DNA of 35,692 bases from Gemmatimonadota bacterium (GTDB lineage: Bacteria; Gemmatimonadota; Gemmatimonadetes; Gemmatimonadales; GWC2-71-9), in assembly GCA_036679605.1 (NCBI GenBank), contig JAZDCZ010000292.1:1-35692 (forward strand), in the 5' to 3' direction. The position numbers were made by a program, and so were the translations under genes. Below are positions 1,363 through 27,438 of this stretch, in pieces. Within the stretch, counting starts at the first letter, position 1. Every line of letters starts with the position of its first letter. The notes beneath the pieces were generated by a model. The model was not told the origin of the DNA and did not search any database. It was given only the letters and a program-made list of their open reading frames with translations.

Positions 1363-3819
1363 ATGGACGCTACTCAAAATGGCCAGCACCGGATGGGCGA
1401 AGATCGCCATGACCTCAACACCGATCCGGCCTCCGGGATCCAGGGAATGCCGCCGAACCTGGGCGACTGGGCACTGCGTCACACCTTTACGTTTGTGGGC
1501 ATTGCCGGTTCCCAGGCCAAGGTCTATCGGCCCAGCGACGAGGCGATTCGCGACTCGTTCGACAATGCACAATTCATGCGCAACGACATCACCGTCATGG
1601 AGTGTGTCGAGATGCGCCAGCGTGCGGTGGCGCTGTTGGACTGGAGTATCGAACCGGAAGACGCCCAGGACGCGGAGCAGGTGGCAGTCGCCGATACGCT
1701 CACGAAGATTCTCAAAAAGATTCCGCGTTTCATGCAATATCGCGAAAACCTACTCCACGCCACCTGGTACGGAAAGTATGGCATCCAGCACAAATGGGGC
1801 TATCGCTGGGTGGCCGGCAAGATGCGTCCGATGCCTTTGAAGTGGCTGCCCGTGAGTGGCGACAAGATCGTCTATCGTTACGACGACGGCATGACCGATC
1901 ACCGTCCCGATCAGATCGGCATCCGCGTCGGCGCCGGCATCTACAGCGGCCCCGACCTGCGGAACTCCCTGCAAAACGAAATGAAATCGCAAGGCTTCCG
2001 GGGGAAGATCGAGTCCACCGATCATGGCTTGGCGTATTTCCTGGATACGTGGGAGAGGACCCTGCTGGCCGTTCACAAGTACCGCATTGAAGACGGTGAA
2101 TATCACGACCCGTCCCACGCTGGCCGCATCCACGGCGTAGGTGTCCGGTCGGTCCTCTACTGGACCTGGTATCAGAAGCAAGAGACGCTAGCCAATCTGA
2201 TGGAATTTCTCGAGCGCTCCGCCACGGGGACGGAACTGTGGTACTACCCGATGGGTAACAAGCAAGCGCACGATGCGATGGAGAAGGCAGCCCAGGAAAA
2301 GATCGGCAACGGTCGAAACATCGTATTGGTGCCGCGGCCGTTAGGCGAAGATGGGCAGCAGTACGGGGTCGAACACGTAGAGCCTGGCATGGCGGGCGCC
2401 GAGCAGATTAAGTCGATCATCACCGAATACTTCGGCCACGCGATCAAGCGTTACATCCTCGGTCAAACACTTACGACCGAGGCGTCGGCCACGGGACTCG
2501 GCAGCAGCTTGGCAGACATCCACCTCGACACGTTCATGCAAATTGTCCGTTACGATGCGATGCTTTTGGAAGAGACAATTACCACGGACCTGCTTGATCC
2601 GCTCAAGAAACTCGGCTTCCCGAAGCACGCCAACGTCGACTATCAGATCCGGATCCACACCCGCGAGCCAGACGCCGATCAGATCATCGAAGCGATGATG
2701 AAAGCCTACGACATGGGCCTGCGGCTCGACGCGCAGCAGCTGCGCGACTTGATCGGATCGCCAAAACCGGAAAAAGACGCCGAAGTGCTCGACAAAATGG
2801 AACAGATGAAAGCCGAGCAAGAGGCGGCCCAACCTCCGCCGGAGCCTGGCGGGATGCCACCAGGCAACATGATGGCCCCTGGGTCAAGCATTGGGGCAAT
2901 GAACGGCGACCAGCAAGCTGGCGTCAACGGCGACGCGCAGTCCGCGAAGAATTCCGCACCGGCCGAGGCGACTGAGCAGGCCGAGTACGTGGCCAATGGT
3001 AACCCCAGCGAGAACAGCGATCGGCAGCGGCTCGTCGGCAGCGACGACCAGCGGGTCGATCACTATCGTCGCTTCCGTTACGACGGTGAGACTGACCTTG
3101 ACGATCGGATCGACAAGGCGGCTAGCGAAACGGACACTAACCCCAGCGACAAGCAACGTGAAGCGGGCAACTACCGCAAGGGGCGATTCCATTGGAACGG
3201 TCTGGAGCTGGTGATCGAGACGCCGCGCGGAGTGAAACGCCGTCCAGAATGGCCCGCGATGCCGGCACACTACGGATACATTCGCCGGTTCGAGAGCGAA
3301 GCGGACGGAGACCACATTGACATTTTCATCGGTCCGAAGCCAGATAGCGAACTCGTGTTTGTCGTGGACCAGGTCACGCCTAGCGGGCGCTTCGACGAGC
3401 ACAAGGTGGTCCTCGGCTGTATCTCCGCCAAAGAGGCCGACACGCTTTATCGCGAGGCCTACACTTCCGGCTGGAAGGTGGGGAAGATCACGCCGATGAC
3501 GGTCAGTCAATTTCTGACGTGGCTGGAGAACGGCGACAGCAGCAAGCCGATCGAGAAACAAGTCGCGGCCTATGCGGCCGACTGGAATGAACCAGCCCAC
3601 AAGCGGGGCCAGGGCGGCCAGTTCGTTCCGGACCTGACCGGTTGGGACGTCGAGCGCAAGCAAGAGCCTTCCCTCCCCGGTCAGACAGGTCTTTTCTCGG
3701 ACGTGGATCCCGGCCTGGTGGGAGCAGCACAGCCCACCAAGAAAGCAGGTGCCAAACGCGACCCCAACCAGCGACAGATGTTTTTCCGCCGCCAGGTGCA
3801 AGAGGCACTGCGCGGCTGA
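1363..3819 (+). CDS. Portal protein (Mu gp29/DUF935-like) fused to a phage inorganic-pyrophosphatase-like (InPase) domain and a tagged C-terminal tail (818 aa)
   Basis: RBS AAGGAG. Portal-like motifs RQRAVALLDWSIEP, LLHATWYG, ILGQTLTT...GLGSSLADIH, LEETITTDLL. After a P/Q/G-rich linker: GNYRKG...IETPRG...MPAHYGYI...ADGDHIDIFIG...VFVVDQ...FDEHKVVLG, the InPase signature seen in phage polyvalent proteins. Confidence 0.85.
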   Translation: MDATQNGQHRMGEDRHDLNTDPASGIQGMPPNLGDWALRHTFTFVGIAGSQAKVYRPSDEAIRDSFDNAQFMRNDITVMECVEMRQRAVALLDWSIEPEDAQDAEQVAVADTLTKILKKIPRFMQYRENLLHATWYGKYGIQHKWGYRWVAGKMRPMPLKWLPVSGDKIVYRYDDGMTDHRPDQIGIRVGAGIYSGPDLRNSLQNEMKSQGFRGKIESTDHGLAYFLDTWERTLLAVHKYRIEDGEYHDPSHAGRIHGVGVRSVLYWTWYQKQETLANLMEFLERSATGTELWYYPMGNKQAHDAMEKAAQEKIGNGRNIVLVPRPLGEDGQQYGVEHVEPGMAGAEQIKSIITEYFGHAIKRYILGQTLTTEASATGLGSSLADIHLDTFMQIVRYDAMLLEETITTDLLDPLKKLGFPKHANVDYQIRIHTREPDADQIIEAMMKAYDMGLRLDAQQLRDLIGSPKPEKDAEVLDKMEQMKAEQEAAQPPPEPGGMPPGNMMAPGSSIGAMNGDQQAGVNGDAQSAKNSAPAEATEQAEYVANGNPSENSDRQRLVGSDDQRVDHYRRFRYDGETDLDDRIDKAASETDTNPSDKQREAGNYRKGRFHWNGLELVIETPRGVKRRPEWPAMPAHYGYIRRFESEADGDHIDIFIGPKPDSELVFVVDQVTPSGRFDEHKVVLGCISAKEADTLYREAYTSGWKVGKITPMTVSQFLTWLENGDSSKPIEKQVAAYAADWNEPAHKRGQGGQFVPDLTGWDVERKQEPSLPGQTGLFSDVDPGLVGAAQPTKKAGAKRDPNQRQMFFRRQVQEALRG

Positions 3820-3839
3820 CAGCGGTTTAGCAGGGAATA

Positions 3840-4055
3840 ATGGCAAACGTACTCGAAAAATCTATCCGTGATAGCAACTCGGCACGCAAGCTAACCGCCA
3901 TTCGCAAGCTGCAGCGCCTGCTGGTGGCCATGGAACAGCCTGGATTTACCGGGTCGATCGAGATATTGATCCACGGCGATCTCGGGAAAATCGGCAAAAT
4001 GCGAGCCCGGCTCGACGATTGGGACAATCCGAATCCGCCGCAAGCGAGAAAATAG
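3840..4055 (+). CDS. Small hypothetical protein (71 aa)
   Basis: ATG with an upstream AGGGA; fills the gap between the portal and the next promoter; contains a GFTGSIEILIH beta-hairpin-like segment. Confidence 0.6.
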   Translation: MANVLEKSIRDSNSARKLTAIRKLQRLLVAMEQPGFTGSIEILIHGDLGKIGKMRARLDDWDNPNPPQARK

Positions 4056-4056
4056 C

Positions 4057-4086
4057 TTGACAAATTGCCCGGCAATCGCCAAGAAT
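4057..4086 (+). promoter_or_regulatory. Candidate sigma70-type promoter for the head-tail block
   Basis: Perfect TTGACA at 4057-4062, 18-nt spacer, AAGAAT at 4081-4086; begins immediately after the preceding stop codon. Confidence 0.5.
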
Positions 4087-4136
4087 GCACACTGACGGCA
4101 AAGTGCCATCCACAATTCAATCTCCGGTACTTTACG

Positions 4137-4184
4137 AAAAAGGCCGGGTTCGCAACCTCAGCGGTTGCGAGCCCGGCCTTTTTT
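4137..4184 (+). terminator. Strong rho-independent terminator, potentially bidirectional
   Basis: AAAAAGGCCGGGTTCGCAACC-TCAGC-GGTTGCGAGCCCGGCCTTTTTT: about 21-bp stem with one G-U pair, an A5 run before and a T6 run after. Confidence 0.85.
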
Positions 4185-4217
4185 ATTTGCCCCGAGGCAC
4201 TTGAGCAAACCGATGCG

Positions 4218-6008
4218 ATGGACGCACTGCTTGATGCCCCCGACGTGCAAGCCTCCGACGCCGCGTTGGAGTTGCCGCAGGGCAACGTGCGAGAGCCGGG
4301 AGATTTTCCCGAGGAAGAGTTCCTGACGATCCCCAACGTGCCGGTGTTCGCCGAGCACAAAACCATGGCCAGCGATGATCGCGAGATCAACTTTGGATAC
4401 CACGAACTCAAACTGGTTGCCGATCGATGCAATCGTCGCATCGCCGAAAGTGGCGACTACGCCGCCGTCTGTATCGGGCACACGCCCAAGCCAGAGGCCA
4501 AGGCGTCGGGAGCAGCAGATCCTGACGTGGTTGGCTTTGCTGGGCCTTTTCGCATGGGCCGTATCGGCCAAGCTGGGACGCGACAACGTCATGCAATTCT
4601 CGCCGACTTCCACATCTTCCGAGATGACGTCACTCGATTCAAAAAGCATCCTCGCCGCAGCCCGGAGTTGTGGCTGGAGGACAGTTACGACGAAATGTTT
4701 CTCGACCCGATTGCGTTGCTCGGTGCCGAAGCGCCACGTCTCGACCTGGGGCTCTTGTATTCGGCAGTCTTGCACCGCAACGGGCGTCAGGTACTACGCG
4801 AAAAGTACACCGCCGTCGCGCCTGGCCCCAGCAACGTGTTTATTCCCGATGCCGGCGACCAAAGACGCTATTCACCCTCAGCAGACGAGGATACTCAAAT
4901 GGACGTAAACGACGATCTGGTCGCCAGAATCTGTGAAGCAATCGGGCAAACCGACGAAATGAAGTTCGTGCAAAAAATGATGGCCGAACAGTCGGGTGGC
5001 ATGGCGGGCGGCGAAGTCGCCATGGATGTACCCAGCCCTGCCATGGCATCGGTGGAACCTCCCGCACCTCCTGCCGCGTCACCTGCCGGACCGGACCCAA
5101 TGAATCAGGGACCTCCCGAGGGACCTCCCCCGGTCCCACCGGAAGACGAGGATCCCACGCAAAACATGCGTCACATGAAAACCTACGCGGCCATGGACGA
5201 AATGGAGGACGACGAATTGGAGCAATATATGTCCCGTCGTCGCAAAGGGCATCGCCGCATGGGCAGTCAGGGCAAGTACGAAGCGGGCAGCGGCAACGCG
5301 GCCGGCGAGTACCAGACCGCCAACCAGAGCGAGCTTGGCTCAGGAAAGCAGGAGCGATCCGAGACGAGCGGCGCCCCCACGCCTTATCAGGCCGAAGGGT
5401 CGGCGGACGGTAGCCGGGAAAATCCCAGCGGCACTGGCACGGCCAACGGCTCGATGGAGATTGCCACCGGTTCGGTTGACGAGGCGAATGGGAGCGGCAG
5501 TAACGCCGCCTCGACTTACTCTCGCAACGGCCATGGCAATTCGGTGCTCTACCAGCGTCTGCAGGTGGAACTGCGAACGCAGTCCGACCGCAGCGACAAG
5601 CTGGAGCAATCCCTAGTGATCGAGCGAAACAATCGGATCAATGCCGAACGCTACCAGCGTCTCCAGGGATTGCAGCTGGAGGGTTTCACGCTGGATCCGC
5701 AAGACGAAATGGAGCGTCTTTCCGCCGACAAGATGTCGACCGAACAATTCGACGAGACGGTGAAGTCGATCACGGAGCATTACCAGCGCATGCCGACGGT
5801 CGGTCTGCCTTACTCGGCGGAAGCCGTGATGAATGATCCAGGGCGCCCTGGCAGCCGCAACGAACAGGAGCGGTACAGCAGAGCCTGCGGGCAAAGAGCG
5901 GAAGAGATTTGCATGAGCATCATCAACCAGGGCGGTGATCAACCAAACTTTGTCACGATCCTGGACGAGGTGAAGGCCGGCAAGCACGGCGAAGTGTTGG
6001 TCGCTTAA
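4218..6008 (+). CDS. Prohead maturation protease with C-terminal scaffold (Mu gpI/gpZ-like)
   Basis: Lies between portal and capsid genes. IGHTP, LADF and RRSPEL motifs fit the His/Asp/Ser residues of Mu gpI-type head proteases. Low-complexity then coiled-coil C-terminal part. Start moved to the in-frame ATG at 4218 because the longer ORF from 4065 runs through the promoter and terminator. Confidence 0.75.
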   Translation: MDALLDAPDVQASDAALELPQGNVREPGDFPEEEFLTIPNVPVFAEHKTMASDDREINFGYHELKLVADRCNRRIAESGDYAAVCIGHTPKPEAKASGAADPDVVGFAGPFRMGRIGQAGTRQRHAILADFHIFRDDVTRFKKHPRRSPELWLEDSYDEMFLDPIALLGAEAPRLDLGLLYSAVLHRNGRQVLREKYTAVAPGPSNVFIPDAGDQRRYSPSADEDTQMDVNDDLVARICEAIGQTDEMKFVQKMMAEQSGGMAGGEVAMDVPSPAMASVEPPAPPAASPAGPDPMNQGPPEGPPPVPPEDEDPTQNMRHMKTYAAMDEMEDDELEQYMSRRRKGHRRMGSQGKYEAGSGNAAGEYQTANQSELGSGKQERSETSGAPTPYQAEGSADGSRENPSGTGTANGSMEIATGSVDEANGSGSNAASTYSRNGHGNSVLYQRLQVELRTQSDRSDKLEQSLVIERNNRINAERYQRLQGLQLEGFTLDPQDEMERLSADKMSTEQFDETVKSITEHYQRMPTVGLPYSAEAVMNDPGRPGSRNEQERYSRACGQRAEEICMSIINQGGDQPNFVTILDEVKAGKHGEVLVA

Positions 6009-6080
6009 CAGAGTTCACGAATCACAACTTAAACGTAATTGCAGTCGTACCCGTAACGGGTTCATTCGAGGAGTAAAACC

Positions 6081-6506
6081 ATGTCTCAGCCCACCCAACG
6101 CATTGTGGCAGGCGGCAACATTTTGCCGTTCCGTTTCGTGAAGCCAGATACCACGGCGGATCACCAGGGTCTCCAGGCGTCCGCCAACGCGGAAATCATC
6201 GGCGTGGCAGGTGAAGAAACCAAGTTCGCGCCGCTCTCTGATTTGGTAACCACCAACAATCACGCGGAGTCGGGTGATACCGTCAACCTGCACGGCCCTG
6301 GTGGGGAGGCGCTGGTGGAAGCTGGTGCGGCGTTTGCTGCCGGCACGCGACTCAAGGCCGACAGTGTGGGCCGGGCCGTGGCCATCGCCACCTCCGGAAC
6401 CACCGTTCAAGAATACGGCGGTCGCTCGCAGGAAGCTGCTGCGGCCGCAGGCGAGAAGATTCGCATCAACGTGGAGCCCGGTTCTATCCGACCCGCGCTC
6501 TCTTAG
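6081..6506 (+). CDS. Capsid cement/decoration protein (DUF2190-like, 141 aa)
   Basis: RBS GAGGAG. Small Ala/Gly-rich protein with IIGVA...GDTV...VEAGAAFAAGTRLKADSVGRAV; directly upstream of the major capsid gene. Confidence 0.75.
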   Translation: MSQPTQRIVAGGNILPFRFVKPDTTADHQGLQASANAEIIGVAGEETKFAPLSDLVTTNNHAESGDTVNLHGPGGEALVEAGAAFAAGTRLKADSVGRAVAIATSGTTVQEYGGRSQEAAAAAGEKIRINVEPGSIRPALS

Positions 6507-6653
6507 CATTTGAAAGTCACATTGTTTGTTGATACCCCGAAGTTAAAAATCACAAATCGACGGCTAGGTTGGCCCCCGAAAAACCGGATTACCTGTCCGG
6601 TTGCCGTCGAACACAAACGGGTGCCGTGGGGACGGTGATGGAGAATTATTCCA

Positions 6654-7694
6654 ATGGCCGCCGTCTATCCGGGCCCCCAAAACACGTTCGTTCGCGCCCA
6701 CGAACATTCCAATAAGATGGTAATCGACTTCGCACGCAACATTAAAAAGTTTGCCGTGAACAAGTACACGAAAACCGTGCCGGTCAAAAAAGTGGCGGGC
6801 TACTACCTCGAAATGACCATCGAAGAGGCGGGTCGGATCATCAATGCCGATCTCCGCAACTTCGTCTGGTACGACGGCCAGGCGGCGCCCGAGGGCGTGG
6901 ACGGCCGCGAGTCGTTCGAGTTCAAGCCGTTCGAGTCGGTGCGTTATGCCTATCCTTTCCAGCTCGGCGATCTGACGATCGACCAGGCGAGTTGGAACAT
7001 TTTGGATCACCATTCCTCGATTCACAGCCGCCAGGCCATGACGGGTCGCACACAGCTGGCGGTCACGCAGCTAACCACCACGGGCAACTATGCCGCGAGT
7101 CACGTGATGGATGTCACCACGATCAGCGGGAACACGGGCAATTGGGCTCAATCGACAACCGCGCGGCAGGATATCAAGCGGTCGCTCACGACGGCCGGCG
7201 AGAAGATCCTGGACGATACGCTGGCGGCGATCGAGCTGGATGACCTGGTGTTGGTGATCAATTCGGCGATGGCCGCAGAGCTGACCCAAAGCCAGGAAAT
7301 CGTCGACTACATCAAGGGCTCGCCCGAGGCGCTCGCGCAAGTGAAAGGCGAGTTGTCCGGAACCAACACGATGCACGGTCTGCCGAACAAGCTGTACGGC
7401 TACCCACTTGTCGTCGAGGCGGCTCGCAAGGTCACCACGAAGAAAGGCGCTACGACCAACCGGTCGCAGGTGCTGGCCAAGGCCACGCCTTTCTTGTGTG
7501 CTCGGCCGGGAAGCATTGTCGGCGTTGCCGACGCCCCCAACTTCTCGACCTGCGTCTGCTTTGCCCAGGAAGAGCTAACGGTCGAGACCCTGAGAGACGC
7601 CAACAACAGACGGACTCAAGGGCGGGTTGTGGACAACATCGTTTACAAGATGGTTGCTCCCGTGAGTGGAGTTTTGTTCCAGGCCGCAGCGTAA
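6654..7694 (+). CDS. Major capsid protein (HK97 fold, 346 aa)
   Basis: Size and position after protease and cement genes. Features include GNW after a long helix, LVLVINSAMAAEL, and GLPNKLYGYPLVV, typical of HK97-fold capsid proteins. Confidence 0.85.
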   Translation: MAAVYPGPQNTFVRAHEHSNKMVIDFARNIKKFAVNKYTKTVPVKKVAGYYLEMTIEEAGRIINADLRNFVWYDGQAAPEGVDGRESFEFKPFESVRYAYPFQLGDLTIDQASWNILDHHSSIHSRQAMTGRTQLAVTQLTTTGNYAASHVMDVTTISGNTGNWAQSTTARQDIKRSLTTAGEKILDDTLAAIELDDLVLVINSAMAAELTQSQEIVDYIKGSPEALAQVKGELSGTNTMHGLPNKLYGYPLVVEAARKVTTKKGATTNRSQVLAKATPFLCARPGSIVGVADAPNFSTCVCFAQEELTVETLRDANNRRTQGRVVDNIVYKMVAPVSGVLFQAAA

Positions 7695-7706
7695 CTGTTT
7701 GCCGAT

Positions 7707-7747: not shown

Positions 7748-7773
7748 TGAGCAATCACGGGATGACTTGAGAC

Positions 7774-8274: not shown

Positions 8275-8277
8275 GCC

Positions 8278-8772: not shown

Positions 8773-8790
8773 CTAAGTGAAAAAACAACC

Positions 8791-19698: not shown

Positions 19699-22600
19699 AT
19701 GGCACACGAACACGTAAAGCCAGTTCACGTAGCTGCCCAGGACAATCCCGCTGACTTTAATACGCGGGTTTGGGATTCGCTGTCTCCGTATACGGGAGAT
19801 GTGGGAGGTTTGTGGTGTCCCTGCCACGTTTCCTATATGGATCCTTTTGGTTTGCCTAGTTCTAACCAAAACAATAATGGGGAATCTGACCAGTGGGCTT
19901 CGGGAGGGCCAGAGGACCCTGGGAATTACTTCTTTGGATGTTTTACTGTAACTCAAGGAATTATCAGCGGTGATATCGTTGCCGATCTGCCAGGATTAGA
20001 AAACCCAAATTGGGTTGATGATGGATCACAGACCGACCCAGACGTATCAGGACAACCAAGGTTTTTACCTGGGACAGCTAATGGAGGAACGGCAGAGGCA
20101 GGCATCCTGCAAGTAAAGGACAGTTGCGTTCGCAAGGACAAATCTTTTTCTAGAGGAACTCTGGCTAGATTCTACCCTCCAGGTATGAAAACATGGGAAA
20201 CTTTTGTAGCCCCCAACCCATTATGGAACGACGACTTTAACATTCCTCCTGCTGATCCTGACACTTTTGGTAATTCAAGATTTATTAGTCCTTTGGGGCT
20301 TGATGAATGGCTTGGGTCAGCAGGGAAACCGTTTTTGTGCCGACAACGAGGAACCAAACTTTGGATGATGACATTCGCAGGTAGTTTGTCTTTCGCTGAT
20401 AAGTATGAAGGGGTGGAGTCAGAGAGGGATGACCACAGTCAAGGCTACGACTTACTGCATTTTGGAGAGAGAGTGCTGGTCGGGGATATTTATGAAACCG
20501 AGGATGCTCCAGAACTGCTAACGGAAACCAGCTACTTGGATTATAGATTTATCGAGAATCATCCAAATGGTTTTGACTATGTAGTGTATCAAGGCAAACA
20601 ATTTGAAGCATTGTATGAGCACGTTTCACTTAGAACTATTTCTGAATCGTGTTGGACCCACACCTCCGAGGTAGTCATTGAAGCCTTTCCTAATGTTATC
20701 GGTGATTTGTACGGGGTAGGAAATGATTCTTTGTTTTATATCCATCACCAAAACTACGGAACGCAAAAGATACCAAAAACACCTGAAGGATCAAGTCCGC
20801 CGTATGGAAGTGTTTGGAACGAAATTTACATTGACGCTGTGGAAGTTGTGCCTTACCAAAGCAATAGACAGGGCATGATAACAATAGGAAACGACCCTGC
20901 GATTTCCCGCTCAGAACCTCACATGAAAGAGGGCAGAATAAACATCGGAGGGATGCTCTACCCCACTGAATATCCAGATGGCTTTCCTGGACCAAACGGA
21001 GCAGGTGTTGGGTTTGTTCCCAATGATCTTCTTAACCACTACCCCATCAAACCCGCACTGAGGGACACTCCCTGGATGGTGGGAGCTACACACAATAAGA
21101 AATCACTTTGTTGTGGCAAGTTCATCTGGTTTGAAGATGACCCAACGGCAACGGCAGGCTCAGAGGTGTTTTCTTCGCAGGACTTTCGCATTGACCCCAG
21201 ATCTGAGGAAGGTTTTGCAGTCATAGAAATTGATGATGGTCCGGCGTATCCTGGTACTTACGTTCCGCCCACTCAGCCCACTACAGTTCCTAGAACTAAT
21301 CTTTTAGAAGGCACGATGGCGTTTGAGACGCACATTCTAATCCCTGCAAACAATTTTACGACCATCTTCGAGAGGGCGTTTGGTGAGTGGGCTGTTTCTT
21401 ATACGATGGAATGCCGGGGCTACGACCGTCGCATTGCCAACGAATGTGACGGAGCGATTGATTGCGTTTTGTGGACTAAAGGAATGCTACTGAAGAATGA
21501 CGTGTTTCATTCAGAAGTCCAGTTTGAGAGCTTGCCTATTGATATACTGACTACAGTGAGGGGACCAACAGGTGATTTTTCTACCCTCGCTAGAACAAAA
21601 GAAAGAGAATCATACTTTGATGATTACCATGTTACTGTGCGTAATCCTATTGTCGATTTTTCTCAGCTTACTGGGATACCTATATTCACTTCAACTAATG
21701 TCACACTGGAGTATGAGTATGAAGGTCGGGGGTATGGTCCAGTAATGAAGCAACCCACGGAGGCCGGTATTTGGATTCGCAAATGGAGAGTAGACGCAGA
21801 GGAACGCAAGGCAAGCAGAACCCCGCAAGAATATCATCCCTATGATGAAAGCCTACCGGCCGATGACCCAATAAACTTAGACGCTGATTGGATTATAGAA
21901 AGACATAATGTACTAGATGACAGGGAAACAATTCCTGATCCCCGATTTACTGGAAGTGGTACACCCCCGCAAGTTCCCAACCCTGATTTTGGTTGGGTTC
22001 CCGTTGCCTGTTGCTTGACTCCTTATGGTGATTTCTGCTATGTGATGCTTCAGCCTTGGCCTGAAGGTACATACCCATTTTCTTACTCAGAACCAGAAGT
22101 GCTCCCCAATACCTCAATACTTACAGGCGATAGACCCCCAAGAACTCCAAGAAAAGACAGATACTTTAGAATAGTCCGTCCTGGTTACTGGGATATAAAG
22201 ACTAGGTTGGCAATGCCCCAGAGAACGAATCCTACAATAAATGGTGTGCTGGACGATGATGATCCTGCCAATTGGGTCAACCCCACTACTCCGGGACCGG
22301 GTGACCATGTAGACACGGTGAATGGGTACTTTGTACCAGGAGGAGGCGGGGCTGCTCATGGTGGACTATTTGGAATTGGAAGGCCCGAGCAAGACTTCGA
22401 TCAGAACCTCCACAGATCAAAGTTTCCAGTAGGCATGAAGTGTAATGGACATACGTTATCTATCACCAACATGCCGGCGAGAATGGCTGGTGGTAGAAGA
22501 CTCACAAAAGTGGAACAAGAGGCGTTTGATAAGTACCCACTCGTGTCAGACCTCAAAGACTTAGAGCCAATAGTATTTGCTTCTACTGATCCTGCGGTAG

Positions 22601-23079
22601 ATAAATACACTCCCCTACCATTAGATGTATCTGAACAGAACAGGCTGTTGGAGTGGGATGAGACTGAGTATGAAAATACTGTTGCCAATGAATGGAACAT
22701 TGACCTAGCTACTGGGAAGATAAGGGTTCCTTGGAGGTCAATTCAAGTTTTTTCTGCCTCCCTTGTTCCTGGTAAGGATGATAAGTCTCCCCATGAGACA
22801 GTCACAGTGGAAGAATTAAATGATAGTGGAGCAGTCAATGATTTTTTAACGCTCGTATGTACTTTTGATGTTTCTCTAGTCAACAAAATGTACCATGCCT
22901 CAGTCATACCAACAGAACAGGTCGATACTAACAACCCCCTTTTCACTTTTGCAAGAAGACATTTTGTCAACTTTGGTTCAACAGGCAGACCAGTTCACGA
23001 AGCACATATGAACGCTGCGTCAGGGTGGGATACAGTTCAGTTTGTCGAAGGCTATACCCCACCGCCCGTAGATCATTAA
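19699..23079 (+). CDS. Large AT-rich hypothetical protein, candidate receptor-binding/tail-tip component (1126 aa)
   Basis: Last gene of the virion operon; uninterrupted 3.4-kb ORF with A/T-ending codons; rich in P, D, G, W and C. No family recognised. Confidence 0.6.
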   Translation: MAHEHVKPVHVAAQDNPADFNTRVWDSLSPYTGDVGGLWCPCHVSYMDPFGLPSSNQNNNGESDQWASGGPEDPGNYFFGCFTVTQGIISGDIVADLPGLENPNWVDDGSQTDPDVSGQPRFLPGTANGGTAEAGILQVKDSCVRKDKSFSRGTLARFYPPGMKTWETFVAPNPLWNDDFNIPPADPDTFGNSRFISPLGLDEWLGSAGKPFLCRQRGTKLWMMTFAGSLSFADKYEGVESERDDHSQGYDLLHFGERVLVGDIYETEDAPELLTETSYLDYRFIENHPNGFDYVVYQGKQFEALYEHVSLRTISESCWTHTSEVVIEAFPNVIGDLYGVGNDSLFYIHHQNYGTQKIPKTPEGSSPPYGSVWNEIYIDAVEVVPYQSNRQGMITIGNDPAISRSEPHMKEGRINIGGMLYPTEYPDGFPGPNGAGVGFVPNDLLNHYPIKPALRDTPWMVGATHNKKSLCCGKFIWFEDDPTATAGSEVFSSQDFRIDPRSEEGFAVIEIDDGPAYPGTYVPPTQPTTVPRTNLLEGTMAFETHILIPANNFTTIFERAFGEWAVSYTMECRGYDRRIANECDGAIDCVLWTKGMLLKNDVFHSEVQFESLPIDILTTVRGPTGDFSTLARTKERESYFDDYHVTVRNPIVDFSQLTGIPIFTSTNVTLEYEYEGRGYGPVMKQPTEAGIWIRKWRVDAEERKASRTPQEYHPYDESLPADDPINLDADWIIERHNVLDDRETIPDPRFTGSGTPPQVPNPDFGWVPVACCLTPYGDFCYVMLQPWPEGTYPFSYSEPEVLPNTSILTGDRPPRTPRKDRYFRIVRPGYWDIKTRLAMPQRTNPTINGVLDDDDPANWVNPTTPGPGDHVDTVNGYFVPGGGGAAHGGLFGIGRPEQDFDQNLHRSKFPVGMKCNGHTLSITNMPARMAGGRRLTKVEQEAFDKYPLVSDLKDLEPIVFASTDPAVDKYTPLPLDVSEQNRLLEWDETEYENTVANEWNIDLATGKIRVPWRSIQVFSASLVPGKDDKSPHETVTVEELNDSGAVNDFLTLVCTFDVSLVNKMYHASVIPTEQVDTNNPLFTFARRHFVNFGSTGRPVHEAHMNAASGWDTVQFVEGYTPPPVDH

Positions 23080-23186
23080 AGGAACGGGGCTATTCCATCG
23101 CGGCGAGCACTCCGCCTAGAACTCGACGGGCGACTGGGTGGGGCAAGTGGGGATGCCCAACTCTACGTCGATCCTCGATATCTCGA

Positions 23187-23426
23187 TCAAGAATTTCGGG
23201 CATCAAATCTAGCGGACGGCGTGACTGATCGTAAGCGTGCGACCGCAACGCGAATCGCTTTGCGCCACCGCGGCGAGCACTCCGCCCACCAGAGCAGACG
23301 CCGATGGTGGCAGCGGCAGTCCGCGAACTCTTCGCACTCCACGCAGACGACAGCGAGGTCGGACCAGGGGCAGCGGTGCCGCAGGTAGCCAGCGTGGTGG
23401 GCGTGGGGGCAGCGCGGTCTGGGCAT
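23187..23426 (-). CDS. Possible small Cys/His-rich protein (79 aa)
   Basis: Most protein-like of the overlapping short frames here (CPHAHH...CVECEEFADCRCHH); frame uncertain. Confidence 0.3.
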   Translation of the reverse strand: MPRPRCPHAHHAGYLRHRCPWSDLAVVCVECEEFADCRCHHRRLLWWAECSPRWRKAIRVAVARLRSVTPSARFDARNS

Positions 23427-23464
23427 CCGGTCACTCGGCCGAAGGGGCTGCTGGCGCTACCCCC

Positions 23465-23632
23465 CTACAGCTCGAAAGGAGCATGGGGGAACATCCCATC
23501 CTTCATGGCCTGCTGGATCGCCGGCTCGATCTTTTTGCGGAATTCCAGGGCCTCGGGCGTGGTGATTGTCGGCTCGACGCCGAGCGTCACCTCGTTCTGG
23601 ATCTTAATCACTTCTTCGCTGGTGAGCGCCAT
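23465..23632 (-). CDS. Small protein (55 aa) directly downstream of the zeta-toxin domain; candidate antitoxin/immunity protein
   Basis: ATG lies 2 nt after the stop of the 1267-aa ORF; sequence MALTSEEVIKIQNEV...PFEL. Confidence 0.6.
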   Translation of the reverse strand: MALTSEEVIKIQNEVTLGVEPTITTPEALEFRKKIEPAIQQAMKDGMFPHAPFEL

Positions 23633-23634
23633 GG

Positions 23635-26600
23635 TCACACCTGCCCTTTCTGCAAAAAACCCTCCCACAACTGCTGGTCGTGGACCTCCAGCTGGGAGCC
23701 CTGGGCACTAGCTATCAGTTTACCAGGTTTCGAGGATGTGTCGAATAGCCGGAACTCGTCAAAGAGGCCTTCTGAGATCGCCTGCGGAATGATCTGGGAC
23801 ACTCCGGCGTGGATGGTTCGGATGACGTCGGCATCGACAAAGCGGCCCGTCTTAGCCGCCCTGGCGTTGGCCCTCTCGATCGCCACTTCCGTGGGCACGG
23901 TCGCGTAATTGGCGACGATCCGATGACCGCTCTCCCGCCACTTTCGAATCTTGCCTCGCAACTTCTCGATCGAGCTGTCGCCGGTCGTGTCGAGGACCAA
24001 GTCAAAACTGCTTTCAAGCCCGCGGCGAATGAGCTGCTTGCTGACGTCGGACGACTCTTCATGCACGAACGGCGCGGCCAGCAAATCTCGACCCTGGACC
24101 ATGGCACCGTACTCGGGTATCTCGCTCTTGATCTCGTCGGGGTCGACATGAACCGCGTTGTCCGGAAGCACCACCGCGCCTTCGCGAACCATGGTCGATT
24201 TTCCGCTGGCGCTTCCTCCGCCCAACATCCAGACGGTCGGCTCGTCACTCTTGGTGACGCCTTGCAAACGCTTAGCAATGATCGCCGAGTGCAGCCGTTG
24301 TCGCTCTGGCGTGTAGTGGTCTCCCACCTTGTACTGGCTCTGCGTGTCGCGACCAGCGGGATTGGCCGGCGGGTAGTGACGGTGGATTTCGCTAAGATCA
24401 GTCGACTGACTCTGCTGGCTGGTAGGATCCTGCGCATCCTTGCCGGGCGTGTTAGATCCGTTGCCAGAGCCGAATTTCCCATCGGCGTCTCGCGGGTGAA
24501 GCTCTTCACGCCAGGCGGCGTAGTCGATCTGTCCGCTCTCGTCCAAGTCGTAGCAGCCGCCCTCGAAACAAGGGGCGTCGATGTCCCGGTTGGCACCGTA
24601 ACGGTTTTCCTTGTCCCCCGAGGCGGGCGTGAAGACGTCGCCATTCTCGCTCCAGCTACCGCCGCGGGCTGGCGGCTGCGGAGGAGCAGTCCAGGCGTGA
24701 GGCTTGCCCGGCTCGACCTGCGTGGCCGTGGACGAGGCCGCCCGAGACTTTTCCAAGTTGCTCGTGGCGAAGCGACCGGCGTCGTCTCGTGCCTGCTGAT
24801 ACCCGTACCGCAGCAAGGTGTGCTGGATGCGAGCAAACATTTCTTTTTGCCGTTCGCCATAGTCCCTGGGCCCTGCCCCTTCGTCGATGCCCGCCTTGAA
24901 CGACTTGGGAAAACTCGCAGCGGTGGCCAGCAACTGATCGATCGGCAGGTCGACCTCCACCACGGAAAACATCGAATCGGGGTCGACTTCTCGCTGGGCT
25001 CGCCAGCGGTGGTGTCCGTCGAGAATGAAACCATCGTTCGAGGCCAGCATGGCAGAGCCGGGCCGCACGCCGTCGCGGCGCATTCCTTCAGCCATGGCAT
25101 CGACTTTTTCCTGGGAGAAGTCTTTTTGAGTCCCCTTCAAGTCGCCGACGCGGACCTCTTTCGTGCGATAGTCGATCCCCTTGCTACTGAGGAAATCGAA
25201 AAACTCTTTCTTGTCGGGGCCGGCGATTTGCGGCATGTCCTGGCGGGGGATGCCAAGCGTCTTGGGCCGACGCGGATCGTCCGGCTCTTCGACTACTTTT
25301 CCTTCCCACACTTTTCCCCCGGTCGACCAGGTGGTATAGCCGTGCTCTTGCAGCCATTGTGTCTGGGCAGGCGTGGCACCGTTTGGCAACTTGATTTGTG
25401 GTTGGTGGCTCGGATTACTGCCTGGCGTAGGAAAAGCACCGCCGACCACGGGATGCTGTGCCTTGTGGTGTCGGATGGAAAACTCGGAGTCTGTCCAAGA
25501 TTCCGGCGGACGAAACTGTCGCTCCAGTTGTTGCTCAATTGACGGCGATTCCGGCTCGGACGTAACAGGCTCGGGACCGTAACCGGCAGGCGTGACGTCG
25601 GTCGTCTTGAAACCGAACCCCGACATTCTCTCGTTGTATTCGTCGAGACTCTTTCGCAGGTGTGGCGGCAATCCTTGGCCGGCCTTCGCTGGTGGGACAT
25701 CGCTCGGCGTTGTCCCACCGCCCGAGCCAAATTTGCCATCGTCGGCGCGCTGGTGCTTCGATTCGTCAAAAGGGCGACGGTATCGGAGAGCCTCCAGACC
25801 GTGACGCAGCTGCATCGAGAACCGCAGCCGAGTCAGGGACTCCCGGAGTCCAAAGCGGGCCCGCTCTGGGTCAGGCCGGTCGCCTTCTGATGGTCCTGGA
25901 TTTCCTTGTAATGGCGCAGCATCTTCGTCTTCTGCGCCTCCGTTAGTTTGGGATAGAAGCGATCGGATGCGTCGCGTGGCGTCTCGGATGATTTCTTTTT
26001 CTCGCTTGGGCTCGTTGGCGAGCTGTCTGGTTTCTTCGTTGATGGCATCGCTGATTTCTCCTTTGTGCGTGGATTCAATGCGGAACAGCCCATGCAGCTG
26101 CTGGGCCGTCTGGGCTCGCTGGCGATTGGCTTCTGGATCGAGTACGTTGCCGGCCTGCTCCAAGGCTGCGGCCCGGCCGCGACGCCCTACCTCGGTAAAC
26201 GTGCGGGCTTCGCCGCCGAGGTCGCGCATGATCGCGGCGGTGATCGTGGCCCGTTCGACATCGAGGCTCCGCTCAACCTCTTCTGTACCGAACATATCGG
26301 TCTGAGTTTCGACGACGCTCTCGGTGAGCCCCTTCACCCGGGCCATTTCTTCGACGACGTCCTGGCGTAGTTTCTTGCCACTCTGCTCGGCGTTGTGGAT
26401 CTGGCGGAATAGCTGGTCCTGCTTGTCGTGCTCCTTCACGTTCCGGGCGATCGACAGAGCGAATTTCTCGTCGAGCTGGTCGTTTACCAAAGCAGCGAAG
26501 GCGCTGTCGGAGAGCTTGGCCAGCACGACGCCCTCGTCGGCCATCCGCCCCTTCATGGAAATCCCTTCCTCCCGGACCTTCTCGACCGACATATCCATTT

Positions 26601-27438
26601 CGCGGAAGAACTTCGCCGCGTCGATCGACGTCCCGTTGCCCTCGGCGATGTTAGCCAGCGCCCCCATGGCGCGAGCCTCTTTTTCGTCTGCGGCGTCGAT
26701 CAGGAACGTGGGGATGGGGCCCTGGTAACCGCTCCGCATGGCCAATTCAAATCTGTGATGCCCGTTGACTATGTAAGTCTGCCCGTCTTGGGGATCGTGC
26801 CACGCCAGTAACTGGCCGGCAAACTCAGGGCGAAACTTTTGTACTTCCTTCAAAGTTTCGGTCACCCCTTCGTTGCCGATGCCTTGCACCTTGTATTGGA
26901 AGCGATCTGGTGCGCTCGACAGCTCGTCGACGGTGAGCATCGTCACGCCCACCTTGCGACCGTCGGGTAGCGTCTGAATCGAAGGCGCGTCAATGCCGCC
27001 AATACGAGCCGGCTGCGCTATCGGCTCGGCGACTTTGGCGGGAATCTGATTCTCCTCCTCGTCGAAACGGTCATCAAGACTCTTGGATGGATTGAGGATC
27101 GCGGTTTCCGCAGGCGGTTTACTGGCTGTCTCGCCAGCGATCTGATCGGCCTTTTCCAAAGCCTGTAGCTCATCGAAAACTCCACCCTCTTCGGCAGCAA
27201 AGCCTCCGCCTTCCGTTTCCGAGAATTGGCCACCAGTGTCGCGGGGATGCTGCTCTTCTTGCCAGTCGAGTGCGTAATGCTGCCGGCGCCCGGACCGTTG
27301 CAGAGAAAACTGCTCGTTGATCGCGTCGACCAGCGCTTCACGGGTTTTGATCGCGACCTTTTGCGAGAAGACTTCGTCATAGCGCCGGCGATAACGCTGG
27401 ACTCGAAACGCTTTGCGGATGGCTAGCGTGGTGTTCAT
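23635..27438 (-). CDS. Polyvalent protein with two ParB/Srx-like domains and a C-terminal zeta-toxin-like P-loop kinase (1267 aa)
   Basis: Domain 1: PDRFQYK...LLAWHDPQDGQTYIVNGHHRFELA. Domain 2: RQDMPQI...LKGTQKDF...ASNDGFILDGHHRWRA. Kinase: MLGGGSASGKST, VDPDEIK, VHEESS, DLVLDTT, AIERANARAAKTGRFV, LFDTS. Confidence 0.85.
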   Translation of the reverse strand: MNTTLAIRKAFRVQRYRRRYDEVFSQKVAIKTREALVDAINEQFSLQRSGRRQHYALDWQEEQHPRDTGGQFSETEGGGFAAEEGGVFDELQALEKADQIAGETASKPPAETAILNPSKSLDDRFDEEENQIPAKVAEPIAQPARIGGIDAPSIQTLPDGRKVGVTMLTVDELSSAPDRFQYKVQGIGNEGVTETLKEVQKFRPEFAGQLLAWHDPQDGQTYIVNGHHRFELAMRSGYQGPIPTFLIDAADEKEARAMGALANIAEGNGTSIDAAKFFREMDMSVEKVREEGISMKGRMADEGVVLAKLSDSAFAALVNDQLDEKFALSIARNVKEHDKQDQLFRQIHNAEQSGKKLRQDVVEEMARVKGLTESVVETQTDMFGTEEVERSLDVERATITAAIMRDLGGEARTFTEVGRRGRAAALEQAGNVLDPEANRQRAQTAQQLHGLFRIESTHKGEISDAINEETRQLANEPKREKEIIRDATRRIRSLLSQTNGGAEDEDAAPLQGNPGPSEGDRPDPERARFGLRESLTRLRFSMQLRHGLEALRYRRPFDESKHQRADDGKFGSGGGTTPSDVPPAKAGQGLPPHLRKSLDEYNERMSGFGFKTTDVTPAGYGPEPVTSEPESPSIEQQLERQFRPPESWTDSEFSIRHHKAQHPVVGGAFPTPGSNPSHQPQIKLPNGATPAQTQWLQEHGYTTWSTGGKVWEGKVVEEPDDPRRPKTLGIPRQDMPQIAGPDKKEFFDFLSSKGIDYRTKEVRVGDLKGTQKDFSQEKVDAMAEGMRRDGVRPGSAMLASNDGFILDGHHRWRAQREVDPDSMFSVVEVDLPIDQLLATAASFPKSFKAGIDEGAGPRDYGERQKEMFARIQHTLLRYGYQQARDDAGRFATSNLEKSRAASSTATQVEPGKPHAWTAPPQPPARGGSWSENGDVFTPASGDKENRYGANRDIDAPCFEGGCYDLDESGQIDYAAWREELHPRDADGKFGSGNGSNTPGKDAQDPTSQQSQSTDLSEIHRHYPPANPAGRDTQSQYKVGDHYTPERQRLHSAIIAKRLQGVTKSDEPTVWMLGGGSASGKSTMVREGAVVLPDNAVHVDPDEIKSEIPEYGAMVQGRDLLAAPFVHEESSDVSKQLIRRGLESSFDLVLDTTGDSSIEKLRGKIRKWRESGHRIVANYATVPTEVAIERANARAAKTGRFVDADVIRTIHAGVSQIIPQAISEGLFDEFRLFDTSSKPGKLIASAQGSQLEVHDQQLWEGFLQKGQV

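What the first reader, a model, noticed from the sequence alone, without database searches (positions are those of the whole stretch)
3571..27279. A shared 'Tyr site + HxRxxxGxF tag' grammar links the portal tail and each module of the polyprotein: candidate protease-processed, co-packaged effector delivery system
Seen in sequence: five copies of one motif, each preceded by a Tyr. Portal: AY-AADWNEPAHKRGQGGQF (3571-3624). In the 1267-aa protein: HY-ALDWQEEQHPRDTGGQF (27279-27223), RY-RRPFDESKHQRADDGKF (about 25785-25729), RY-GYQQARDDAGRF (about 24810-24769, degenerate, lacks the His) and DY-AAWREELHPRDADGKF (about 24525-24472). The copies open ParB-like domain 1, ParB-like domain 2, a short peptide and the zeta kinase. 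The DNA encoding them is diverged, so conservation is at protein level, across genes on opposite strands more than 20 kb apart. Established: head proteases cleave scaffold, portal and internal proteins at short recurring motifs (e.g. T4 gp21), and HPR-x-x-x-G-x-F-like segments occur in MuF-associated and other phage head proteins. Inference: the prohead protease cuts at the Tyr sites and releases separate effectors, each starting with the tag, which may bind DNA or direct ejection into the host.
Basis: partly seen in the sequence, partly recalled or inferred. Interest (0 to 1): 0.9.

Follow-up and report, generated by a model that had tools for sequence, protein, structure and literature searches.

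The report
Leader tag on phage head-cargo modules
The repeated peptide is real: it is a widespread and, as far as I could find, undescribed "leader tag" that heads each enzyme module phages appear to carry in their heads, and in this phage it follows a short tyrosine site that looks like a cutting site for the phage's own head protease.

Summary
All five copies are at the stated coordinates, each after a Tyr: four strong, one decayed. They are the only four profile matches below E=1 in the 6.7-Mb assembly.

The tag, [WF]-D-E-S-K-H-P-R-x-x-D-G-K-F plus a Gly-rich linker, is not special to this phage. A profile finds 2,814 protein clusters. Carriers include fusions to four portal families, prohead proteases and polyvalent effector proteins, and small free-standing effectors that start with the tag at residue 2-4.

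Tags come about one per 260 residues. They abut the upstream fold, precede a roughly 40-residue linker, and almost never end a protein. So the tag heads modules.

The Tyr is not part of the general tag (7% outside this lineage). It belongs to a second, lineage-specific motif, (K/R)-x-Y-x-A. That motif is 7-10 times over-represented in the disordered part of this lineage's protease-scaffold protein, whose N-domain resembles herpesvirus assemblin and T4 gp21. A second lineage repeats the rule with its own motif, one sub-lineage does not, and only 2 of the 5 window sites fit it.

The "site + tag" grammar is supported. Cleavage, packaging and the tag's binding partner remain inferred.

The parts
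1363..3819 (+). Portal gene (818 aa): Mu-type portal fused to an InPase effector domain, then Tyr site, tag and a 62-aa tail
   Evidence: Pfam Portal_Mu PF06074 E 3.3e-42 (aa 249-465) and InPase PF18823 E 6.5e-38 (aa 597-722)
3571..3624 (+). Portal Tyr site (Y737-A-A-D) plus a divergent tag WNEPAHKRGQGGQF, 10 aa after the InPase domain ends
   Evidence: Absent from the two closest portal relatives, which end at or near the Tyr
4218..6008 (+). Protease-scaffold candidate (596 aa from ATG 4218; the ORF is open from TTG 4065). Folded N-domain at about aa 30-205 (4305-4832), then a long disordered region and a helical tail
   Evidence: 305 homologues, none with a Pfam domain. Invariant H47, H88, T89, R146, R147, S148, E150, D163 in 35 sequences. 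AF2 mean pLDDT 79. VIA-align best hits: VZV protease Z 7.0 and T4 gp21 Z 6.6
4806..5819 (+). Five Y-x-A sites in the non-globular part of the protease-scaffold protein (Y197 TA, Y323 AA, Y354 EA, Y390 QA, Y532 SA)
   Evidence: The motif is enriched 7-10 fold in the variable region of 120 family members
23635..27438 (-). 1267-aa polyvalent protein: N-terminal basic helix, tag 1, ParB-like 1, tag 2, ParB-like 2, decayed tag 3, Cys-pair element, tag 4, zeta-type kinase
27223..27279 (-). Tyr site (H-Y55-A-L-D) plus tag 1 WQEEQHPRDTGGQF
   Evidence: 46.3 bits
25960..26946 (-). ParB-like region 1 (aa 165-493; NGHHRF motif)
   Evidence: phrog_21 E 3.7e-69; ParB-like phrog_8071 E 6e-07 and phrog_723 E 3.3e-05. 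No Pfam ParB hit at E<=0.01
25729..25785 (-). R-Y553 plus tag 2 FDESKHQRADDGKF. Y553, R564, G568 and F570 are invariant in 6 relatives
   Evidence: 48.2 bits
24868..25266 (-). ParB-like region 2 (aa 725-857; DGHHRW motif)
   Evidence: phrog_2859 E 4.5e-25. The 'ParB-like' label rests on the shared GHHR motif read, not on an annotated family
24769..24810 (-). R-Y878 plus decayed tag 3 (GYQQARDDAGRF); the W-D-E-S-K-H-P core is lost
   Evidence: Not detected by the profile
24472..24525 (-). Tyr site (D-Y973-A-A) plus tag 4 WREELHPRDADGKF. E978, H981, P982, R983, G987, K988 and F989 are invariant in relatives
   Evidence: 44.8 bits
23743..24273 (-). Zeta-toxin-type P-loop kinase domain (aa 1056-1232)
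   Evidence: Pfam Zeta_toxin PF06414, E 2.8e-23, 82.8 bits against a cut-off of 22.3

Best explanation
The repeated peptide is a conserved short linear 'module-leader tag', [WF]-[DNE]-E-S-K-H-P-R-x-x-D-G-K-F followed by a Gly/Ser-rich linker. It marks the start of each cargo module in effector proteins that tailed phages carry in the head.

This window has four intact tags and one decayed tag: one on the portal-InPase tail and four in the ParB-ParB-zeta polyvalent protein. The tag is the constant half of a two-part grammar. The variable half is a short lineage-specific motif directly upstream. Here it is (K/R)-x-Y-x-A-(D/G). The same motif is repeated many times in the disordered part of the lineage's own protease-scaffold protein.

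I infer that this upstream motif is the cutting site of the assemblin/gp21-fold prohead protease encoded at 4218-6008. Cutting would free modules that begin one to a few residues before the tag's Trp/Phe, the same N-terminus that free-standing tagged effectors are born with.

I further infer that the tag is a docking peptide read inside the assembling head. It would hold each module to a conserved head component (protease-scaffold or portal) for loading and orderly processing, much as the T4 capsid-targeting sequence does.

Shown: the tag exists, is conserved and widespread, is placed at module starts, keeps head-module company, and the upstream motif is enriched in two lineages. Inferred: cleavage, packaging of this polyprotein, the scissile bond and the tag's partner.
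For: Reality and spread:
- There are 4 strict matches in six frames, all in two genes, and 4 of 4 matches below E=1 in the whole assembly are on this contig.
- The profile search of 1.84 billion representatives gives 2,814 at E<=0.001 and 332 at E<=1e-10, with up to 14 scored tags in one protein.
In 120 loci, 127 ORFs carry a tag at >=18 bits.

Conservation (633 tags from 230 proteins): W61/F36, E 95%, P 93%, F 90%.

Company:
- 51 of the 120 listed carriers have a portal Pfam domain from four families, and 4 have a prohead-protease domain (my count from the table).
- Other domains are ART, GNAT, Acb1, NUDIX, InPase, Topo IB, zeta, MPTase, MuF and SNF2.
- The commonest neighbours in 75 contigs are MuF-like proteins (21+8+5 contigs), portals, terminases and DUF2213 'head maturation protease'.

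Placement:
- Median spacing is 260 aa.
- Hydrophobic content stays at the 26% baseline up to 11 residues before the His, then falls to 9-18% for the next 30 and recovers by about +50.
- 135 of 721 tags lie in the first 60 residues, 6 of 721 near a C-terminus.

Cassette behaviour: free-standing proteins begin M-Q-F-D-E-S-K-H-P-R... or M-A-N-W-D-E-S-K-H-P-R.... They carry PBECR1, LPD3, LPD13 or Topo IB, and the same PBECR1 occurs after a tag on PF06381 portals.

Site half:
- Y[AGSTQM]A[DEGNA] occurs 158 times against 21.6 in shuffles (max 34 of 300), and [KRQ]YxA 173 against 18.1, in the variable region of 120 protease-scaffold homologues.
- The window protein has five Y-x-A sites outside its fold.
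- Relatives' portals stop at this site.
- In a second lineage, six unique DUF2213 protease-scaffold proteins hold [LIVMFY]AxD 41 times against 10.7 in shuffles (max 22 of 500). That is 11.0 against 2.4 per 1000 aa in their neighbour genes. 11 of 12 tags on those contigs have A-x-D within 8 residues upstream.

Protease: fold hits are VZV protease (Z 7.0, rmsd 3.2, 104 aa), T4 gp21 (Z 6.6, 118 aa), HCMV (4.7) and KSHV (3.3). There are invariant His, Ser and Arg-Arg residues. Pseudorabies assemblin sites are given as YLQA-T and VQA-S (passage of PMC4498786).
Against: - No experiment or read-out here shows that the polyprotein is in virions or is cut.
- Its gene lies on the opposite strand, at the end of the unit that holds the primase-like gene, not in the head operon.
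- Only 2 of the 5 window Tyr contexts fit Y-x-A. Tag 1 is Y-A-L, tag 2 Y-R-R and tag 3 Y-G-Y.
- The enrichment counts come from homologous proteins, so the sites are not independent events.
- The second DUF2213 subgroup (8 proteins) has only 0-1 such sites each, so the rule is not universal.
- The lambda-type lineage gives a single anecdotal match (A-A-M-A).
- The fold match is below Z 8, which the tool warns can be a common arrangement. Foldseek found nothing at E<=0.001, and no Pfam or PHROG protease family matches.
- A tag conserved this strictly across four portal families and many host phyla is hard to reconcile with fast-evolving phage partners.
- No MuF is detectable on this contig.
- The two closest relatives' portals lack the tag, so the portal copy is dispensable in the lineage.
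Confidence: 0.5

Rival explanations
1. The prohead protease cuts exactly at each Tyr, and the released effectors use the tag to bind DNA or to steer ejection into the host.
For: A Tyr precedes all five copies. Tyr lies 3-5 residues before the Trp/Phe in 10 of 14 tags of this lineage. Tags head modules.
Against: Tyr is found in only 45 of 619 tags outside the lineage. Free-standing tagged proteins start 1-3 residues before the Trp/Phe with no Tyr. The enriched scaffold motif is Y-x-A-(D/E/G), which by the assemblin precedent (YLQA-T) puts Tyr at P3/P4, not P1. The core F-D-E-S-K-H-P-R-A-D-D-G-K-F carries about as many acidic as basic residues, which is unlike a DNA-binding peptide (sequence inspection).
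Confidence: 0.12
2. The tag works in the infected cell, not in the head. After injection it recruits a highly conserved host factor to each module, for example a chaperone that refolds threaded proteins or a host protease that separates modules.
For: The tag is nearly invariant across four portal families and across MAGs labelled Planctomycetota, Saprospiraceae, Verrucomicrobia, Deltaproteobacteria, Armatimonadota, Kiritimatiellae, Betaproteobacteria and Clostridia. This fits a conserved cellular partner better than fast-evolving phage proteins. There is one tag per module.
Against: Tags also sit on prohead proteases: at residues 2-24 of three Mu-like_Pro proteins, after the S78 domain of P0051, and after the protease domain of P0244. 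These proteins are not expected to act in a new host. No known host-binding motif resembles the tag, and the PDB sequence profile search gave 0 hits at E<=10.
Confidence: 0.2
3. The tag is itself the scissile site. The invariant Glu is P1 of a gp21-like protease (hydrophobic-x-Glu, cut before Ser), so modules would start at S-K-H-P-R.
For: [WF]-x-E is 95-99% conserved. SPN3US and phiKZ prohead proteases cut at A-x-E and S-x-E (passages of PMC5694885). That T4 gp21 cuts at L/I-x-E is recalled, not from a call. The window protease model resembles gp21.
Against: Conservation runs 12 residues further on the prime side, far more than a protease subsite needs. In free-standing proteins such a cut would remove only 4-6 residues. 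The lineage-specific upstream motifs would be left unexplained.
Confidence: 0.12
4. The tag is passive punctuation: a linker or recombination joint left by shuffling of effector cassettes, with no binding or processing role.
For: The same tag-plus-effector cassette occurs fused or free. Slot 1 of relatives carries a different peptide (WVTIGG...) in the same place.
Against: The DNA of the copies is diverged while the protein motif is kept. Several positions are 90-100% conserved over 633 instances. A joint used for recombination would be conserved at the DNA level and would not need to stand at the N-terminus of single-domain proteins.
Confidence: 0.06

Closest known systems
T4 capsid-targeting sequence (CTS) and gp21 processing of internal proteins and Alt
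   Same: A short N-terminal peptide on proteins carried in the head and injected. It works together with the prohead protease, and the scaffold is cut at many copies of the same site (passages of PMC5694885).
   Different: The T4 CTS is a 10-20 residue propeptide that is removed and is specific to T4-like phages. This tag is nearly invariant across phages with four different portal families, recurs internally once per module, and its removal or retention is unknown.
Polyvalent proteins of phages and conjugative elements (Iyer, Burroughs, Anand, de Souza, Aravind 2017, PMC5512222)
   Same: Same protein class and domain vocabulary (InPase, zeta-type kinase, ParB-like, ART, PBECR, LPDs, portal and MuF fusions). 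That paper also proposes release of domains by proteolysis (passages).
   Different: The paper attributes release mainly to embedded metallopeptidase domains. I found no mention of this tag or of any inter-domain motif in its main text. Its supplementary files on an FTP site were not seen.
Herpesvirus assemblin with release (R) and maturational (M) sites in a protease-scaffold fusion
   Same: An N-terminal serine-protease domain fused to a scaffold. It cuts itself at the domain end and cuts the scaffold at short sites with a hydrophobic or Tyr residue and Ala (YLQA-T, VQA-S; passage of PMC4498786). The window protein has K-Y197-T-A-V-A-P right after its folded domain and resembles the VZV, HCMV and KSHV proteases.
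   Different: There is no sequence-family match, the fold score is moderate (Z 7.0), and the catalytic residues are not assigned. The invariant Arg-Arg-Ser could be the nucleophile region or an oxyanion-loop Arg pair.
Giant-phage (phiKZ, SPN3US) ejection proteins processed at A/S-x-E sites
   Same: Many head-borne ejection proteins and the portal are cut by the prohead protease at a short repeated motif (PMC5694885 passages).
   Different: Those proteins have long propeptides that differ from protein to protein. No shared constant tag after the site is described there.
Encapsulin cargo-loading peptides (recalled, not checked in a call)
   Same: A short conserved peptide on a flexible Gly-rich leash that docks cargo to the inside of an HK97-fold shell.
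   Different: Those peptides are usually C-terminal and have a different sequence. Binding of this tag to a capsid protein is not shown.

Membership tests
Polyvalent protein (Iyer et al. 2017) | Two or more unrelated effector domains in one polypeptide | tested here: met
   Zeta_toxin PF06414 (82.8 bits) plus two ParB-like regions by PHROGs in the 1267-aa protein; InPase PF18823 on the portal
Polyvalent protein (Iyer et al. 2017) | Encoded by a phage with a portal-terminase head system, or by a conjugative element | tested here: met
   Same contig holds a Mu-type portal, a cement-like protein, a head-tail adaptor, a primase-like protein and an integrase. No terminase was identified in the window.
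Polyvalent protein (Iyer et al. 2017) | DdrB-like ParB domain of that paper | tested here: inconclusive
   No Pfam ParB-type family at E<=0.01. ParB-like PHROG families at E 6e-07 and 3.3e-05 for region 1 only.
T4-type capsid-targeting sequence | Short peptide at the extreme N-terminus of a head-internal protein | tested here: inconclusive
   In the window all tags are internal (aa 59, 557, 976; portal aa 741). In relatives 23 of 721 tags lie in the first 10 residues and 135 of 721 in the first 60.
T4-type capsid-targeting sequence | Necessary and sufficient for incorporation into proheads; removed by the prohead protease | not testable with these tools
   Needs packaging assays and N-terminal mapping
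Assemblin / gp21-fold prohead serine protease (window 4218-6008) | Fold shared with herpesvirus protease and T4 gp21 | tested here: inconclusive
   AF2 mean pLDDT 79, pTM 0.64. VIA-align: 1vzv Z 7.0 (rmsd 3.2, 104 aa), 5jbl Z 6.6 (118 aa), 8j3s Z 4.7, 1fl1 Z 3.3. Foldseek gave no hit at E<=0.001.
Assemblin / gp21-fold prohead serine protease (window 4218-6008) | Invariant His and Ser catalytic residues | tested here: inconclusive
   H47, H88 and S148 are invariant in 35 sequences, but they were not mapped onto a catalytic triad
Assemblin / gp21-fold prohead serine protease (window 4218-6008) | Membership of a curated protease family (S78, S80, Mu-like_Pro, DUF2213) | tested here: not met
   No Pfam or PHROG hit. 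BLASTP against a DUF2213 protein gave E 0.21.
Assemblin / gp21-fold prohead serine protease (window 4218-6008) | Gene placed between portal and capsid genes, with a scaffold-like tail | tested here: met
   Order is portal, this gene, cement-like PF22758 protein, 346-aa capsid candidate. The tail is disordered then helical.
Mu-type portal (PF06074) | Pfam gathering score | tested here: met
   145.5 bits against a cut-off of 23.9

The most novel reading that the evidence does not exclude
The tag is a universal, portable address label for phage head cargo. Any protein that begins with it is loaded into the procapsid, by binding a conserved site on the protease-scaffold or portal, in phages as different as lambda-, Mu-, HK97- and PB1-like ones. 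The short motif just upstream of each tag reads out each phage's prohead-protease specificity directly from sequence. If so, thousands of capsid-delivered anti-defence effectors, and the cleavage rules of uncharacterised head proteases, could be annotated from sequence alone.
Probability: 0.3. Interest if true: 0.85.

Novelty: new variant of a known kind. Interest (0 to 1): 0.7.

Why it matters
Phages carry enzymes in the head and inject them ahead of, or with, the DNA to disarm the host. Which proteins travel this way is mostly guessed from gene position or from fusion to portal or MuF.

A constant leader peptide found in 2,814 protein clusters would give a sequence-only marker for such cargo. 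Among the carriers are fusions with anti-CBASS Acb1, NUDIX, ADP-ribosyltransferase, RNase and zeta-kinase modules. It would also mark module borders in giant polyvalent proteins.

The paired upstream motif offers a way to infer prohead-protease specificity in uncultured phages.

It also suggests a simple handle for loading foreign proteins into phage heads in laboratory strains, as was done with the T4 CTS.

Tried and rejected
- Complex prediction of the protease domain (aa 25-210, 35-row alignment) with the 45-aa tag region gave 'no answer' (score 0.00 in both runs; controls not run; partner pLDDT under 50). It says nothing either way.
- Foldseek of the protease model against the PDB gave no match at E<=0.001.
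- A profile search of PDB sequences with the tag gave 0 hits at E<=10.
- Close-relative search in viral contigs with the whole polyprotein found none.
- BLASTP of the window protease against a DUF2213 protein gave nothing (E 0.21).
- No MuF was found on the contig. The only weak hit, 17.5 bits, is on another contig.
- Literature, all without a description of the tag:
  - motif strings HPRxxxG, HPRxxG, HPRDxxG, KHPR, HPRXXXGXF and HPRG;
  - 'HPRD' with phage, motif and portal;
  - MuF / packaged / capsid / effector terms;
  - 'find' searches in PMC5512222 and PMC5576092.
  The only 'GKF' in PMC5512222 is part of a DOI.
- A search for DUF2213 found 7 papers. I saw only the listing, and none looked to be about cleavage sites.
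- PMC13483052 on portal proteins and the stringent response was opened (outline only) and is not relevant.
- Pfam and NCBIfam have no model covering the tag.
- Checking whether tags in MAG loci L130-L138 sit in phage or conjugative contexts was uninformative, apart from L131, which reads portal, tagged protein, capsid.
- Rejected idea: that the tag binds MuF in this phage, because no MuF is present.
- Rejected idea: that the Tyr is part of the tag.

Full report
**What the window is.**
The window is a whole 35,692-base contig of a 6.7-Mb assembly.
- The plus strand carries a head and tail module:
  - a KTSC-domain protein (178-1350);
  - a Mu-type portal fused to an InPase domain (1363-3819; PF06074 E 3.3e-42, PF18823 E 6.5e-38);
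  - a 596-aa protein with no family match (4218-6008);
  - a cement-like protein (6081-6506; PF22758 E 7e-05; PHROGs calls the same protein a head scaffolding protein, phrog_673);
  - a 346-aa capsid candidate and a head-tail adaptor;
  - large tail genes up to 23079.
- The minus strand carries the 1267-aa protein (23635-27438), a SAP-domain protein, a primase-like protein and an integrase.
- The 1267-aa protein has a zeta-toxin-type kinase at its end (PF06414, 82.8 bits) and two ParB-like regions by PHROGs. It is a polyvalent protein in the sense of Iyer et al. 2017 (PMC5512222).

- The strict pattern has four matches in six frames, all in these two genes.
- A profile of the motif finds four matches in the whole assembly at E about 1e-13, all here; the next best are E 1.6 and 2.9.
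- Copy 3 is a decayed tag. It aligns with an intact tag of a relative but has lost the W-D-E-S-K-H-P core.
- The DNA of the copies is diverged.

**The tag is a large family.**
- A word-indexed search with a 13-row profile listed 218 proteins at E<=1 among 8,000 candidates.
- A full HMMER search of 1.84 billion cluster representatives gave 2,814 at E<=0.001 and 332 at E<=1e-10. One 7,334-residue protein has 14 tags scored at >=15 bits, and HMMER counts 19 stretches.
Of the 120 loci held, 127 ORFs carry a tag.
- Over 633 tags from 230 proteins (chosen only by an aromatic residue, His, Arg, Gly and a final aromatic residue) the logo is:
  - W61/F36, D64, E95, S51, K42, H, P93, R;
  - then D51/A27, x, D45, G, K51/R33, F90;
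  - then G, S, G, G, G.
- No PDB chain, Pfam model or NCBIfam model covers it.

**Who carries it.**
- Of the 120 listed carriers, 51 have a portal domain from four families: PF05136, PF06074, PF04860 and PF06381.
- Four have a prohead-protease domain: PF04586 in one and PF10123 in three (my count).
- Other domains are ART-PolyVal, ADP-ribosyl exotoxin-type, GNAT, Acb1, NUDIX, InPase, topoisomerase IB, zeta, metallopeptidases, MuF, SNF2 and FtsK.
- In 75 viral contigs the commonest neighbours are MuF-like proteins (21, 8 and 5 contigs in three clusters), portals, terminases, DUF2213 proteins that PHROGs call head maturation protease, and capsid proteins.
- Named phages with a tag include Pseudomonas phages Orimi01/Orisa01-03 and Xanthomonas phages PhiXhv-5/-7.

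**Where it sits.**
- Successive tags are a median 260 residues apart (331 spacings, quartiles 193 and 388).
- On 721 non-redundant tags, hydrophobic content stays at the 26% baseline until 11 residues before the His. It drops to 9% and 18% in the next two ten-residue bins after the core and recovers by about +50.
- 135 tags lie in the first 60 residues (23 in the first 10) and only 6 within 40 residues of a C-terminus.
- Free-standing proteins start M-Q-F-D-E-S-K-H-P-R... or M-A-N-W-D-E-S-K-H-P-R... and carry PBECR1, LPD3, LPD13 or topoisomerase IB. The same PBECR1 follows a tag on PF06381 portals.
- So tag, linker and effector behave as one cassette that can be fused or free, and the tag belongs to what follows it.

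**The Tyr is a second, lineage-specific element.**
- Tyr lies 3-5 residues before the Trp/Phe in 10 of 14 tags of this lineage but in 45 of 619 others.
- In relatives P0005-P0008 the first slot keeps Y-A-x-D but is followed by a different peptide (WVTIGG...), not the tag.
- The portals of the two closest relatives (77% and 76% identical) end at this point, one as ...Q-V-S-G-Y-S-A-N plus ten residues, with no tag.
- The same motif is repeated in the protease-scaffold family. In the variable region of 120 homologues:
  - Y[AGSTQM]A[DEGNA] occurs 158 times against 21.6 in shuffles (max 34 of 300);
  - [KRQ]YxA occurs 173 times against 18.1.
- The window protein has Y-x-A at residues 197 (just after its folded domain), 323, 354, 390 and 532.
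- These proteins are related, so the counts are not independent events.

**A second lineage repeats the rule; a subgroup does not.**
- Six unique DUF2213 protease-scaffold proteins hold [LIVMFY]-A-x-D 41 times against 10.7 in shuffles (max 22 of 500). That is 11.0 per 1000 residues against 2.4 in the other genes of the same loci.
- 11 of 12 tags on those contigs have A-x-D within eight residues upstream, often the same A-Q-D-A.
- Lambda-type portals have A-A-[LM]-A before the tag, and their 317-aa protease-scaffold-like neighbour has one A-A-M-A. This is anecdotal.
- Against the rule:
  - the other DUF2213 subgroup (8 proteins) has 0-1 such sites;
  - in the window only the portal and tag 4 fit Y-x-A, tag 1 is Y-A-L, and tags 2 and 3 do not fit.

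**The protease candidate.**
- The N-domain of 4218-6008 has 305 homologues without any Pfam domain.
- H47, H88, T89, R146, R147, S148, E150 and D163 are invariant.
- The AF2 model has mean pLDDT 79.
- VIA-align ranks VZV protease (Z 7.0, rmsd 3.2, 104 residues) and T4 gp21 (Z 6.6) first, with HCMV (4.7) and KSHV (3.3) further down. Foldseek found nothing, and Z below 8 is not decisive.
- One family member carries a tag right after this domain.
- For pseudorabies assemblin the release and maturational sites are given as YLQA-T and VQA-S, and an Arg-Arg pair lines the oxyanion hole (passages of PMC4498786).

**How it most likely works.**
- Shown: a constant leader tag at module starts in head-associated proteins, and in two lineages a variable motif upstream of the tag that matches the phage's own scaffold repeats.
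- Inferred:
  - the variable motif is the prohead protease's site;
  - cutting frees modules that begin at the tag;
  - the tag docks each module to a conserved head component for loading or processing.
- Rivals are:
  - a role in the host after injection, which explains the extreme conservation but not the tags on proteases;
  - the tag itself as an x-E cut site;
  - passive punctuation.

**Comparison and novelty.**
- The nearest precedents are:
  - the T4 capsid-targeting sequence with gp21;
  - giant-phage ejection proteins (PMC5694885 passages);
  - herpesvirus assemblin sites;
  - the polyvalent-protein framework (PMC5512222).
- None of the texts I searched describes this tag. The supplementary files of PMC5512222 were not seen.
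That agrees with the reading here but is an unchecked AI note.

**What stays open.**
- whether this polyprotein, encoded on the opposite strand with replication-type genes, is packaged;
- the scissile bond;
- the tag's partner. The one complex prediction gave no verdict.

Noticed in passing
P0005 aa 54-100, P0006 aa 56-, P0007 aa 55-, P0008 aa 42-; also P0057 aa 834, P0071 aa 439, P0314 aa 838, L057:15239-16369: A second conserved inter-module peptide, W-[VI]-T-[IL]-x-G...G-T-P-V-x-I-x-x-x-G-x-I-x-x-G-P-x-x-L-x-G-K, fills the slot in relatives where the window protein has tag 1. It recurs in 9 proteins of the sample, often after the same R-Y/Y-A element. It may be an alternative leader.
   Followed up: partly
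window 24526-24570 (aa 957-972 of the 1267-aa protein) and relatives P0006-P0008: A two-cysteine element, C-F-x-G-x-C-Y, lies 9-15 residues before tag 4 and is conserved in three relatives. Function unknown.
   Followed up: no
window 23635-27438 and P0009: Basic amphipathic stretches of the type R-I-A-x-x-[IL]-R-Y end at the Tyr before several tags. Similar basic helices sit at the N-terminus of the polyprotein (AFRVQRYRRRY) and at the C-terminus of the portal tail (MFFRRQVQEALRG).
   Followed up: no
window 20001-22000, inside ORF 19699-23079: GC drops to 0.458 against about 0.59 elsewhere, inside a 1126-aa ORF with no family match at the end of the tail module. It may be a recently exchanged host-recognition gene.
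   Followed up: no
window 178-1350: The gene just before the portal carries a KTSC domain (PF13619, E 2.5e-12), not a terminase. Its homologue precedes the portal in both relatives. No terminase was identified anywhere in the window.
   Followed up: no
P0244 aa 192-218: Of 120 homologues of the window's protease-scaffold protein, one has a full tag inserted directly after the protease-like domain.
   Followed up: partly
L012:9968-14020 (1351 aa); P0252 (7334 aa); P0253 (5313 aa): Proteins with 6, 14 and 13 scored tags. In P0252 each tag is preceded by F-[SA]-x-D, so Phe takes the place of this lineage's Tyr.
   Followed up: partly
window 28264-28944: A small minus-strand protein upstream of the polyprotein has a SAP DNA-binding motif (PF02037, E 6e-05, just under the cut-off).
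   Followed up: no
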